From the NCBI GenBank assembly GCA_000995415.1, contig LCEX01000008.1:8398-72397 (forward strand): a stretch of DNA of 64,000 bases, in the 5' to 3' direction. The notes under the pieces are model-generated. The model was not told where the DNA came from. It was given only the letters and a program-made list of their open reading frames with translations, and searched no databases. Every line of letters starts with the position of its first letter. Positions within the stretch are counted from its first letter, which is position 1. Below are positions 30,664 through 31,569 of this stretch, piece by piece. The translations under genes and the position numbers were made by a program. This DNA comes from Candidatus Gottesmanbacteria bacterium GW2011_GWC1_43_10 (GTDB lineage Bacteria > Patescibacteriota > Microgenomatia > UBA10105).

Positions 30664-31569
30664 TTATTTGAAAGCCAAAAGAAGCACCAGGATACCCAGG
30701 ATGATTCTATACACCACAAATGGATACAAAGAATGTTTGCTTACAAACCGTAAAAAATATTTGATGGTGAGATAACCAAAAATTGCAGCTGATACGATTC
30801 CGACTGCAAAAAAAGTTAGTTCCGAAAACGCTAGTTCACCACTCGCAAATAAACCAATGGTTTTGATAAGTTTCAACCCTCCGGCTCCGGCAATGATTGG
30901 TGCGGATAGTAAAAATGCAAACCGCGCTGCTTCTTCGCGTCTCAACCCTCGCCACATGCCGGCGGAAATCGTAATCCCAGACCTGGAAACTCCGGGAATC
31001 AAAGCTACAGCTTGAGCTAGTCCCACAGTCAGACTATCCCTCCAATTCATTTGTTTTATATCCCTTATTTTCTTCCCCACTTTCTCTACATATATAAGGA
31101 CTCCGGAAAAAAGAATTAGGGTGAGAGCAATGAGCACTGGCGAGCGAAATACTGTCTCCACTTTTTTTTCAAGTAACAAACCAAAAAGCACACCGGGAAC
31201 CGTCCCAATGAGCAATAAAAACGCCAAGCGTTGAGAATTGTCATTCCCACCCCGTATGTCATTCCCGCGAAACTTGTCCTCGACTCCGATCGGGGAGCGG
31301 GAATCTATTTTAATGGATCCTCCGGTCAGGCCAGAGGATGACATTTTGGTTATCGCTGCTAATACTAATTTTTTCCAATCGTCTCTAAAAAACCAAAGTA
31401 AAGCAATCAAAGTTCCCAAATGAAGTGCCGCATCAAAAGACAACCCGTATTTTTCCTGGGAAATTCCCAGTAAATTCTCGGCAATTATCAAATGCCCAGT
31501 TGAGGATATCGGCAAAAATTCCGATATTCCCTGCACCGCACCCAATAGAATAGCTTTTACTAATTCCAT
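30664..31569 (-). CDS. uppP: Undecaprenyl-diphosphatase UppP/BacA, carrying a 36-codon in-frame repeat-derived insertion
   Basis: [10 protein letters not shown] and [13 protein letters not shown] motifs. Loop 2 is about 20 aa longer than in E. coli and is encoded by a palindromic repeat at 31239..31346. Confidence 0.85.
   Translation of the reverse strand: [301 protein letters not shown]
31239..31346 (-). mobile_element. MITE/RPE-like palindromic repeat (GTCATYCC...GGGAATGACA family), 108 bp, inserted in-frame inside uppP
   Basis: The coding-strand sequence AATGTCATCCTCTGGCCTGACCGGAGGATCCAT...GATTCCCGC...CGCGGGAATGACATACGGGGTGGGAATGACAA aligns end-to-end with 41186..41295. Confidence 0.7.

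What the first reader, a model, noticed from the sequence alone, without database searches (positions are those of the whole stretch)
31239..31346. Palindromic MITE/RPE-like repeat inserted in-frame inside the essential uppP gene
The 108-bp element is exactly 36 codons long. It is co-linear with an intergenic copy at 41186-41295, sharing termini TGTCATCCTC...GGGAATGACAA and the internal GATTCCCGC...GCGGGAATGAC. It sits inside uppP without breaking the reading frame. It adds about 20 residues (…[40 protein letters not shown]…) to a loop that is much shorter in E. coli UppP/BacA. This resembles the in-frame ORF insertions described for Rickettsia palindromic elements. If the taxonomic guess holds it has not, to my knowledge, been described for a CPR-like genome; the element family itself may be new.
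Basis: partly seen in the sequence, partly recalled or inferred. Interest (0 to 1): 0.8.

Follow-up and report, generated by a model that had tools for sequence, protein, structure and literature searches.

The report
Hairpin repeat translated inside CPR uppP
A ~105-bp selfish hairpin repeat, of a type found across many bacterial phyla, sits in frame inside the cell-wall lipid-recycling gene uppP of a Candidatus Gottesmanbacteria genome, where it adds a floppy cytoplasmic loop; the same thing has happened repeatedly in this gene and in a DNA-repair polymerase gene of related bacteria.

Summary
uppP (30664-31569, minus strand) carries a 105-106-bp palindromic element at 31238-31343. It is co-linear with an intergenic copy at 41186-41296. 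It is read in frame as 35 residues, a net gain of 27 over orthologues. The organism is Candidatus Gottesmanbacteria (CPR).

The element is not a new family. It consists of two facing 'GTCAT-stem-loop-stem-ATC' hairpins plus a half-site. Their arms (GTCATTCCCGC/GCGGGAATC) match the Neisseria NTS/dRS3 and 'Ssn-related motif' hairpins, but with 24-28-nt loops. Such doublets occur in many phyla.

The window holds four full copies and one remnant. One of them is a second in-frame insertion, in dinB (41689-41776). The insert lies after helix H3' in the cytoplasmic H3-H4 loop of UppP. AlphaFold2 models it as disordered while the rest of the fold stays confident.

Orthologous UppP loops in at least three lineages, and the DinB loop in many, carry other hairpin repeats. 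A small sample also found in-frame copies in Patescibacteria ATPase, ValRS-like and SpoU genes.

Best reading: a tolerated selfish insertion, like the Rickettsia palindromic elements. No Ssn nuclease or transposase gene was found in the window, so the means of mobilisation is only inferred.

The parts
30664..31569 (-). uppP/bacA, undecaprenyl-diphosphate phosphatase, 301 aa. This is the host gene. Both catalytic motifs are intact.
   Evidence: Pfam BacA at 2.8e-82. TIGR00753 is above its cut-off. The PDB matches are 5OON and 6CB2 at 2e-37. AlphaFold2 mean pLDDT is 90.7, and Foldseek to 5OON gives TM 0.76/0.84.
31238..31343 (-). Element A: a 105-106-bp hairpin-repeat doublet plus a half-site. 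It is translated in frame as M76-D110 ([35 protein letters not shown]).
   Evidence: Co-linear with copy B. It is 54% GC against 41.5% for the gene. Only 1 of the 3 sense frames lacks a stop codon. It is absent from L007, L140 and most orthologues.
31315..31343 (-). Module 1 of A: a forward hairpin, TGTCAT-CCTCTGG-cctga-CCGGAGG-ATCC.
   Evidence: Sequence. The same hairpin type has 27 different compensating arm pairs across the 124 sampled copies, 113 of which pair over at least 6 bp.
31257..31305 (+). Module 2 of A: an NTS-like hairpin read on the + strand, TGTCATTCCCGCG-[27-nt loop]-GCGGGAATC.
   Evidence: Hairpin scan. The arms are identical to the NTS consensus CGTCATTCCCGCGMAVGCGGGAATCYRG (PMC11893778). 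The loop peptide SPIGVEDK recurs in tandem arrays elsewhere and the loop DNA recurs in L104.
31238..31256 (+). Module 3 of A: a half-site, TTGTCATTCCCACCCCGTA. It has a left arm only.
   Evidence: Shared with copies B and E.
41186..41296 (+). Element B: an intergenic copy with the same three-module order. It lies between ORF86 and dinB.
   Evidence: The RNA fold z-score is -3.0 on one strand and -3.6 on the other.
40665..40745 (+). Element C: an 81-bp intergenic doublet, TGTCATTCCCATgaaaATGGAAATC followed by GGATTCCCGC...GCGGGAATGACG.
   Evidence: The fold z-score is -5.4. Its loop resembles those in L009 and in the Omnitrophota locus L080.
41689..41776 (+). Element D: a hairpin doublet inserted in frame in dinB. 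It encodes ~VILGRIRQAAETTPESEKIRTDPGQARIT.
   Evidence: Alignment to solved structures shows about 40 extra residues between Pol IV residues 111 and 115. The loop is 65 aa here against 30-31 aa in 20 of 48 orthologues.
41315..42700 (+). dinB-like Y-family DNA polymerase, 461 aa. It is the second host gene.
   Evidence: Pfam IMS at 5.5e-37 and IMS_C at 2.7e-13. PDB Pol IV at 7.7e-39.
32382..32393 (-). Remnant of element E (TGTCATCCTCGG). It is fused to codon ~14 of the nfo-like AP-endonuclease gene, which therefore begins MSSSGL in this window.
   Evidence: L001, L002, L003 and L008 carry a full ~100-bp copy E between ydjM and the AP-endonuclease gene. The window has a ~135-bp deletion there, bounded by GGACT microhomology.

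Best explanation
Element A is a non-autonomous hairpin repeat. It consists of two 'GTCAT-stem-loop-stem-ATC' hairpins of the NTS/dRS3/Ssn-related-motif class facing each other, followed by a third half-site. In the recent ancestry of this Gottesmanbacteria species it landed in the DNA that encodes the cytoplasmic H3'-H4 connection of UppP.

It persists there because three conditions are met:
(i) It lies in the only sense frame without a stop codon.
(ii) It encodes a hydrophilic, Gly/Ser/Asp/Arg-rich segment that is predicted to be disordered.
(iii) That loop tolerates extra length without disturbing the membrane fold or the two catalytic motifs.

The protein-level effect is that of a tolerated passenger, as proposed for the Rickettsia palindromic elements. 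The unit that propagates is the DNA hairpin. By analogy with NTS and SsnA, it would be recognised as single-stranded DNA by a trans-acting GIY-YIG Ssn-type nuclease, or it would be copied by recombination between repeat copies.

Shown here: the repeat identity, the in-frame insertion, its lineage specificity, its position in the loop, the recurrence in other genes and lineages, and the conserved hairpin structure with compensating arm changes.

Inferred, not shown: translation and retained enzyme function, the mobilising enzyme, and selective neutrality.
For: Repeat identity and copies:
- The window holds four full copies and one remnant, against 0.48 pairs expected by chance.
- The arms are identical to the NTS consensus.
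- The sister lineage L140 has a canonical hairpin, TGTCATTCCCGCGAAAGCGGGAATC, 14 bp upstream of its uninterrupted uppP.

Foreign composition: 54% GC against 41.5%.

Insertion is the derived state:
- The loop is 33 aa in 48 of 69 orthologues.
- The nearest relatives, about 93% identical in flanking DNA, lack the insert.

The gene is intact and the allele is stable:
- The catalytic residues are invariant in the alignment.
- The identical protein is on 24 contigs from independent assemblies.

The site is permissive:
- The insert maps between E. coli W65 and G84. This is the H3-H4 loop, after the amphipathic helix H3' and on the cytoplasmic side according to the BacA topology.
- AlphaFold2 gives a mean pLDDT of 90.7. 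Residues 80-107 are modelled as coil, and pLDDT is below 50 at 92-106.
- GRAVY is -0.71 for the insert and +0.85 for the rest of the protein.

Frame filter: only 2 of the element's 6 frames are open.

Generality:
- A second in-frame doublet lies in dinB.
- Other hairpin doublets occupy the same UppP loop in P0012, P0016, P0018, P0020 and P0022.
- In-frame copies occur in a Patescibacteria P-type ATPase, a ValRS-like synthetase and a SpoU methylase.

The hairpin is the conserved unit:
- 113 of 124 sampled module-1 copies pair over at least 6 bp, with 27 different arm pairs. The mean stem is 6.3 bp against 3.0 in shuffles.
- Loops and spacers differ freely between copies.

Ssn link in this phylum: the Patescibacteria locus L129 has an Ssn-like GIY-YIG gene with three canonical motifs within 200 bp.
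Against: - No Ssn/GIY-YIG, Y1 or other transposase gene was found in the 64-kb window or in 12 related loci. The rest of the genome could not be searched.
- The window's hairpins have 24-28-nt loops and fail the published SRM search pattern. Whether an Ssn enzyme would act on them is unknown.
- No clean empty site and no target-site duplication was found. The insertion replaces about 8 codons, so the insertion chemistry cannot be read from the junctions.
- No expression or proteomic data are available.
- Recurrence at one loop could reflect targeting or function rather than tolerance alone.
- Copy A folds no better than shuffled sequence (z = -1.8 and -1.7). It may already be decaying.
Confidence: 0.72

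Rival explanations
1. Targeted integration. The UppP H3'-H4 loop and the DinB loop are hot spots because the DNA there forms a hairpin or carries a motif that the mobilising machinery recognises. On this view the recurrence is mechanistic rather than a filter of selection. This rival is compatible with the selfish-element reading.
For: - Hairpin doublets sit in the same UppP loop at 3 or more separate positions of a rough NJ tree, always in the same orientation.
- Five orthologues share the same 3' junction...ATGACAA followed by a Leu codon.
- The uninterrupted site in L007 and L140 carries a perfect 22-nt palindrome, TTCGATTATTCGAATAATCGAA, exactly there. L136 and L137 have an imperfect version.
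- Long loops appear to arise by nested insertion into hairpin loops. Element E in L002 has a 24-nt loop where its L140 counterpart has TTTC, and the L113 loop contains another repeat of this window.
Against: - The window's own junctions differ from the others by about 3 codons and by the frame of module 1.
- No target-site duplication is visible.
- The NJ tree has no support values. One ancestral insertion with turnover could explain the P0012/P0016/P0020/P0022 group.
- A selection filter alone predicts the same pattern.
- The palindrome partly follows from a conserved S-I-(I/L)-R-I-I peptide.
Confidence: 0.2
2. Exaptation. The inserted peptide has acquired a function in UppP, for example a cytoplasmic interaction or a regulatory loop, and is kept by selection on the protein.
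For: The allele is fixed in every assembly of this species that was examined. Longer loops recur in several lineages.
Against: - Insert peptides in different lineages share only what the DNA hairpin arms dictate (VIL.., DSR.., GND). Otherwise they differ in length (39-60-aa loops) and in sequence.
- The segment is modelled as low-confidence coil.
- The same elements occur intergenically and in unrelated proteins.
Confidence: 0.06
3. Functional nucleic-acid site. The hairpins inside uppP act at the DNA or RNA level, for example as Ssn cleavage sites that modulate recombination or transformation around cell-envelope genes as NTS does in Neisseria, or as an mRNA structure that affects translation.
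For: NTS clusters around particular genes and modulates transformation in N. meningitidis (PMC11893778). All copies in the window lie within 31.2-41.8 kb, and three of them within 1.1 kb around ORF86 and the dinB start.
Against: - The fold of copy A is not better than shuffled sequence.
- There is no Rfam match.
- No Ssn gene was seen.
- The loops are non-canonical.
- Natural competence of this organism is unknown.
Confidence: 0.08
4. Artefact or pseudogene. The insert is a mis-assembly at a repeat, or uppP is inactivated.
For: - Two assemblies of this population show odd deletions close to repeats. The window lacks ~135 bp at element E.
- L008 (GWA1_42_26) has a 90-bp in-frame deletion that removes the PGVSRSG catalytic motif of uppP.
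Against: The identical insert-bearing ORF is present in 24 contigs from independent assemblers and samples. The frame and all catalytic residues are intact, and the model is confident outside the insert.
Confidence: 0.03

Closest known systems
NTS / dRS3 repeats of Neisseria and the wider 'Ssn-related motifs' (SRM) associated with GIY-YIG Ssn nucleases (PMC11893778)
   Same: - It is an oriented hairpin with a 5' GTCAT, arms ATTCCCGC/GCGGGAAT and a 3' ATC. The arms of modules A2, B2 and C2 are identical or nearly identical to the NTS consensus.
- Copies are clustered.
- Pairs of hairpins face each other, as in the NTS-ssnA-NTS arrangement.
- Canonical copies exist in the sister lineage L140 and next to an Ssn-like gene in the Patescibacteria locus L129.
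   Different: - The loops here are 24-28 nt, not 3-5 nt, so the published SRM pattern does not match.
- No ssn gene was found in the window.
- The copies are gene-less doublets plus a half-site.
- Two of the copies are translated in frame. The passages of that paper that I searched and read do not mention in-frame coding copies.
Rickettsia palindromic elements (RPE; Ogata et al. 2000, as summarised in PMC10969869)
   Same: These are palindromic repeats of about 100-150 bp found both between genes and in frame inside unrelated housekeeping genes. They add a peptide at a site compatible with the protein fold. Here this is seen in uppP and dinB, and in ATPase, ValRS-like and SpoU genes of other Patescibacteria.
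   Different: - The phylum is different (CPR, not Alphaproteobacteria).
- Sequence homology to the RPE families was not tested.
- The inserts here are mosaics of interchangeable hairpin modules rather than one conserved peptide per family.
Neisseria intergenic mosaic elements (NIME) and Correia elements
   Same: They are mosaics built from short inverted-repeat modules that include dRS3. They cluster and are implicated in recombination. This comparison rests on my own knowledge and on the introduction of PMC11893778.
   Different: NIMEs are intergenic by definition. Correia elements have a TA target duplication and their own terminal inverted repeats. Neither feature is seen here.
REP/BIME repeats with RAYT (Y1) transposases, and the IS200/IS605 single-strand hairpin mechanism
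   Same: These are short hairpin repeats arranged in facing pairs, thought to be mobilised in trans through single-stranded hairpins. The analogy is drawn in PMC11893778.
   Different: The 5' signature here is GTCAT, not GTAG. No Y1 transposase was found in the window. REPs are extragenic.
Intragenic ERIC/IRU and other MITE-ORF fusions (Delihas 2007, cited in PMC10969869)
   Same: They are small repeats with open frames that fuse in frame with host ORFs.
   Different: They belong to different sequence families and different hosts. No target-site duplication or parent IS is evident here.

Membership tests
NTS / Ssn-related motif (SRM) hairpin repeats | An oriented hairpin: 5' (C/T)GTCAT, arms ATTCCCGC(G)/GCGGGAAT, then C plus YRG at the 3' side. 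| tested here: met
   A: TGTCATTCCCGCG[27 nt]GCGGGAATCTAT at 31257-31307 (+). C: CGTCATTCCCGCC[..]GCGGGAATCCAG. B: TGTCATTCCCGCC[..]GCGGGAATCCGT. The NTS consensus is quoted.
NTS / Ssn-related motif (SRM) hairpin repeats | A short loop, and a match to the published degenerate SRM pattern HGTCWYN(0-2)YYVSBRHN(0-5)WNVSBRGN(0-2)RNCYNB. | tested here: not met
   None of the copies A-D matches. The single hit in the window, at 59055, is unrelated. The loops are 24-28 nt. Relatives do match: three hits in L129, and the canonical hairpin in L140.
NTS / Ssn-related motif (SRM) hairpin repeats | A cognate ssn gene (a single-domain GIY-YIG protein of about 94 aa, cd10448) in the same genome, often flanked by the motif. 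| tested here: inconclusive
   A regex search and phmmer over all ORFs of the window and of L001-L012 found none. Pfam on 40 window ORFs found none. Only about 64 kb of the genome was available. The gene is present with flanking motifs in the Patescibacteria locus L129.
NTS / Ssn-related motif (SRM) hairpin repeats | Bound and cut as single-stranded DNA by the Ssn nuclease. | not testable with these tools
   This is a biochemical property established for the Neisseria and Wolbachia homologues in PMC11893778.
Rickettsia palindromic elements (RPE)-type coding palindromes | A palindromic repeat with multiple copies, some intergenic and some in frame within conserved genes, with the host ORF preserved. 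| tested here: met
   Copies B and C are intergenic. Copies A and D are in frame in uppP and dinB. The UppP fold is preserved in the model.
Rickettsia palindromic elements (RPE)-type coding palindromes | Sequence homology to one of the described RPE families. | not tested
The resemblance is one of behaviour only.
MITE | Terminal inverted repeats. | tested here: met
   TGTCATYC...GRATGACA termini are present on A, B, C, E and the orthologue copies. They are the outer arms of two facing hairpins.
MITE | A target-site duplication flanking the element. | tested here: not met
   The flanks of A, B, C, D, E, L009 and L011 show no direct repeat (sequences). The insertion in uppP replaces about 8 codons.
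MITE | A parent IS or transposase with matching termini. | tested here: inconclusive
   No transposase domain was found in the window ORFs that were scanned or in the precomputed Pfam lists for L001-L012. The whole genome was not searched.
REP/BIME with RAYT | REP hairpins with a conserved 5' GTAG and an associated Y1 (RAYT) transposase. | tested here: not met
   The 5' signature is GTCAT, not GTAG. No Y1_Tnp domain was found in the window.
UppP/BacA (host gene) | BacA1 (E..EFLP.SSTGH) and BacA2 (PG.SRSG.T) motifs, and the ten-helix interdigitated inverted-repeat fold. | tested here: met
   E17, the S22-H26 stretch, P192, G193, S195, R196 and G198 are invariant among 69 orthologues. Pfam and TIGRFAM match. 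AlphaFold2 with Foldseek to 5OON gives TM 0.76/0.84.

The most novel reading that the evidence does not exclude
In Patescibacteria (CPR), hairpin repeats of the NTS/Ssn-related class routinely settle in frame in permissive loops of conserved housekeeping proteins. Examples seen here are UppP, DinB, a P-type ATPase, a ValRS-like synthetase and a SpoU methylase. On this reading they are a major and so far undescribed source of the lineage-specific protein insertions of these small, gene-dense genomes. Particular loops would be re-colonised again and again, possibly because hairpin-forming DNA at the site is itself the target. If so, a family of single-strand-specific nucleases and its repeats would be linked directly to protein evolution.
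Probability: 0.3. Interest if true: 0.7.

Novelty: new member of a known kind. Interest (0 to 1): 0.5.

Why it matters
Three points make this worth recording.

[quoted passage not shown] It also extends it to the NTS/Ssn-related hairpin class, which has only recently been characterised.
- Many of the unexplained extra loops in CPR proteins may be translated repeats rather than adaptations. That bears on annotation, structure prediction and phylogenetics for these organisms.
- The UppP and DinB loops, hit repeatedly in related genomes, offer a natural data set for testing whether such hairpins insert at preferred DNA structures or are merely filtered by selection.

The finding does not reveal a new kind of element or mechanism.

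Tried and rejected
- Rfam at gathering thresholds over the whole window gave no match.
- The word-indexed protein search with the 40-aa insert peptide found no candidates.
- The full HMMER scan of 1.84 billion representatives with the 39-aa peptide gave 4 hits. Three are spurious ORFs on tandem '[17 protein letters not shown]' arrays and one is an unrelated low-complexity protein. It therefore did not reveal host proteins.
- The metagenome scan for the three-module signature returned only 3 loci and none of the window's own copies.
- I looked for a clean empty site and a target duplication. The nearest relatives (L007, L140) differ by a replacement of about 8 codons, and no duplication is visible.
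- A search for Ssn/GIY-YIG, Y1 or other transposase genes in the window and related loci found none.
- I tested the published SRM pattern. It misses the window's long-loop copies.
- I considered a structured-RNA role for copy A and rejected it as unsupported. The fold z-scores are -1.8 and -1.7, with 8 of 200 shuffles folding as well.
- I considered mis-assembly and rejected it because 24 independent contigs carry the identical ORF.
- P0002 at first looked like an empty-site allele because it is 271 aa long. In fact it carries the insert and lacks 30 aa elsewhere.
- The other repeat families in the window were checked for coding context. All are intergenic.
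Full report
**1. The observation**

The ORF at 30664-31569 on the minus strand encodes a 301-aa protein. It is UppP/BacA: Pfam PF02673 at 2.8e-82 covers the full profile, TIGR00753 is above its curated cut-off, and E. coli BacA structures 5OON and 6CB2 match at 2e-37.

On the sense strand the flagged segment reads TGTCATCCTCTGGCCTGACCGGAGGATCC-ATTAAAATA-GATTCCCGC[loop]GCGGGAATGACA-TACGGGGTGGGAATGACAA. The intergenic stretch 41186-41296 has the same order of parts. The first hairpin matches at 26/29 positions and the last 31 nt at 29/31. 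The spacer and the large loop differ in sequence and length.

By this homology the element is 31238-31343, which is 105-106 bp or 35 codons (M76-D110).

The repeat is not a chance match. Facing GTYATYC/GRATRAC termini 40-160 bp apart occur 7 times in the window, against a mean of 0.48 and a maximum of 4 in shuffled sequence. The element is 54% G+C in a 41.5% gene and window.

It is not an assembly artefact either. The identical protein is encoded on 24 contigs that were read, from ENA, JGI and NCBI assemblies. The protein is 100% identical to one of Candidatus Gottesmanbacteria GW2011_GWC1, so the CPR guess holds.

**2. The insert is lineage-specific**

Among 69 orthologues the segment between the conserved Trp65 and Leu115 is 33 aa long in 48 sequences. 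The closest relatives are P0003 (locus L007) and the JGI contig L140. L140 is about 93% identical to the window in the flanking genes. Both have the 33-aa loop and no repeat.

Relative to them, 35 residues replace about 8, a net gain of 27. Because of that replacement and the local divergence there is no clean empty site. No target-site duplication is visible.

**3. Anatomy of the element**

The element is a mosaic of hairpin modules with the form GTCAT-arm-loop-arm-ATC.

- Module 1 points forward.
- Module 2 points backward, so both outer ends read TGTCAT.../...ATGACA.
- A third module is a half-site with a left arm only.

Read on the plus strand, module 2 is TGTCATTCCCGCG-[27 nt]-GCGGGAATCTAT. 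Its arms are those of the Neisseria transformation sequence CGTCATTCCCGCGMAVGCGGGAATCYRG, which contains dRS3. They also fit the wider 'Ssn-related motifs' that flank genes for small GIY-YIG single-strand nucleases (PMC11893778).

The loops here are 24-28 nt rather than 3-5 nt, so the published degenerate pattern does not match them.

Canonical versions exist close by. In the sister lineage L140, TGTCATTCCCGCGAAAGCGGGAATCTCT lies 14 bp upstream of the uninterrupted uppP. The orthologous element between ydjM and the AP-endonuclease gene has a TTTC loop in L140. In this species the same element has a 24-nt loop that contains its own small palindrome.

Long loops therefore seem to arise by nested insertion into short ones. 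In the genome sample about 12% of copies have loops of 9 nt or more.

**4. Copies in the window**

- A (31238-31343) lies in uppP.
- C (40665-40745) and B (41186-41296) are intergenic. They flank an 86-aa ORF with no Pfam match.
- D (41689-41776) lies in frame inside the dinB-like Y-family polymerase gene (41315-42700). Alignment to solved Pol IV structures shows about 40 extra residues between positions 111 and 115.
- E is a 12-nt remnant at 32382-32393.

Four other assemblies of this population carry a full copy E. The window has a deletion of about 135 bp, bounded by GGACT microhomology. It fuses the remnant to the AP-endonuclease gene, which therefore begins MSSSGL, the same residues that open the uppP insert.

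**5. Position in the protein**

The alignment to E. coli BacA places the insert between W65 and G84. In the crystal structure this is the connection between transmembrane helices H3 and H4, which contains the short amphipathic helix H3'. The N-terminus and the active-site pocket face the periplasm, so this connection lies on the cytoplasmic side (PMC5852022).

An AlphaFold2 model built on 69 sequences has a mean pLDDT of 90.7 and a pTM of 0.87. Residues 80-107 are modelled as coil, and pLDDT falls below 50 at 92-106. The model superposes on 5OON with TM 0.76/0.84.

The catalytic motifs are invariant. The insert is hydrophilic, with a GRAVY of -0.71 against +0.85 for the rest of the protein. 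It is rich in Gly and Ser and has no net charge. Only one of the three sense frames of the element is free of stop codons, and it is the frame in use.

**6. Recurrence elsewhere**

Five further UppP orthologues have enlarged loops: P0012, P0016, P0018, P0020 and P0022. Their DNA shows other hairpin doublets at the same place and in the same orientation. They have different arms (for example GTCATCCTGAACTTGTTTCAGGATC) and loops, and some are decayed. On a rough neighbour-joining tree without support values they fall at three or more separate positions.

The DinB loop is 30-31 aa long in 20 of 48 orthologues and 33-79 aa long in the rest. The longer loops carry peptides typical of several different palindromic repeat families.

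A scan of one genome per species for the doublet pattern hit its limit at 120 stretches. These came from Alpha-, Beta-, Gamma-, Delta- and Epsilonproteobacteria, Nitrospirae, Omnitrophota, Patescibacteria and others.

In that sample the first hairpin pairs over at least 6 bp in 113 of 124 copies, with 27 different compensating arm pairs. The structure is conserved, not just the sequence.

Four sampled copies lie in frame in recognisable proteins:
- a P-type ATPase (Patescibacteria),
- a class-I tRNA synthetase resembling ValRS, with two inserts (Saccharibacteria),
- a SpoU methylase (Patescibacteria),
- an adenylosuccinate synthetase, from a bin labelled Gammaproteobacteria.

That is 3 of 17 CPR copies against 1 of 83 others (Fisher p = 0.015; small sample).

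**7. How it most likely works**

The best-supported reading is a selfish, non-autonomous hairpin repeat that landed in a permissive cytoplasmic loop. It survives there because frame, composition and position make it harmless. This is the explanation already offered for the Rickettsia palindromic elements (PMC10969869).

The propagating unit is the DNA hairpin. By analogy it would be handled as single-stranded DNA by an Ssn-type nuclease. One Patescibacteria locus (L129) has an Ssn-like gene with three canonical motifs beside it.

This step is inference only. No such gene, and no transposase, was found in the window or in 12 related loci. The rest of the genome could not be searched.

Four rivals remain: targeted integration at hairpin-forming sites, exaptation of the peptide, a DNA- or RNA-level function, and artefact or pseudogene.
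- Targeted integration is compatible with the main reading. The uninterrupted site in L007 and L140 carries a perfect 22-nt palindrome.
- A structured-RNA role is unsupported. Copy A folds no better than shuffled sequence, whereas the intergenic copies B and C fold better.
- Exaptation and artefact or pseudogene are weighed in the rival explanations and rated unlikely.

**8. Comparison with known elements, and novelty**

The element works like an RPE and is built from NTS/SRM-type hairpins. It fails the strict SRM pattern because of loop length. It fails the MITE definition because it has no target duplication and no parent element was seen. It does not fit REP/RAYT.

It is best filed as a new member of a known kind. 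The family is not new. What is apparently unreported is in-frame colonisation of housekeeping genes in CPR bacteria by this hairpin class, and the repeated hits on the same loops. Full-text searches of the held paper library found nothing on it.

Noticed in passing
window 41689-41776 (inside dinB, 41315-42700 +): A second hairpin doublet lies in frame in the Y-family polymerase gene. It adds about 34 aa just after the catalytic SIDE motif. The same loop ranges from 30 to 79 aa among 48 orthologues and carries peptides from several repeat families.
   Followed up: yes
window 32378-32394; L001/L002/L003/L008 around 9043-9187: The window lacks about 135 bp that four other assemblies have. The deletion is bounded by GGACT microhomology. 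It removes most of repeat copy E and the first ~13 codons of the nfo-like AP endonuclease, including its GxHVS motif. The ORF here starts MSSSGL from the repeat remnant. This may be a real variant or an inactivated allele.
   Followed up: partly
L008 10001-10816 (GCA_000998605.1, Gottesmanbacteria GWA1_42_26): The uppP of this assembly carries the same insert but has a 90-bp in-frame deletion. It removes [30 protein letters not shown], which is the BacA2 catalytic motif, and is flanked by CCG microhomology.
   Followed up: partly
L007 334-355 and L140 (uppP codons ~70-77): The uninterrupted uppP loop of the sister lineage contains a perfect 22-nt palindrome, TTCGATTATTCGAATAATCGAA, at the place where other lineages carry hairpin repeats. 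L136 and L137 have an imperfect version.
   Followed up: partly
window 40894-41154 (+): An 86-aa ORF with no Pfam match lies directly upstream of dinB and is flanked by repeat copies C and B. A gene of the same length sits next to the IMS gene in L001, L002, L005, L006, L009, L010 and L135, with an 84-aa version in L008.
   Followed up: no
window 21193-21222, 21979-22007, 28785-28805: Another small palindrome, CCTGCCTGCCGGCAGGCAGG, is intergenic here. The same sequence is nested in the loop of an NTS-like hairpin in L113. The DinB orthologue P0140 carries the matching peptide, LPAGRQG, at the same loop (peptide level only; its DNA was not read).
   Followed up: partly
window 14590-14626, 21130-21170, 25041-25077, 25099-25135; and 12102-12253, 13522-13660, 26027-26171: Two further intergenic repeat families are present. 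One is ATAACCCCTCC...AAGGGGAGG hairpins. The other is AT-rich AAAATGTAAAAATCAAAAT-type repeats, including a 70-nt-arm inverted repeat at 26027-26171.
   Followed up: no
L140 1251-1663 versus window 31570-31575: The spacer between the AP-endonuclease gene and uppP is 413 bp in the sister lineage and holds a canonical NTS-like hairpin. In the window it is only 6 bp.
   Followed up: no
P0121, P0122, P0124: These are short predicted 'proteins' made of tandem [19 protein letters not shown] units. The long-loop version of module 2 therefore also exists as tandem arrays in other genomes and is being annotated as protein.
   Followed up: no
window 35213-37264 (-): A 683-aa protein with no Pfam match varies in length between assemblies of the same population (680, 682, 706 and 722 aa). 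BLAST places indels of about 48 and 129 bp there.
   Followed up: no
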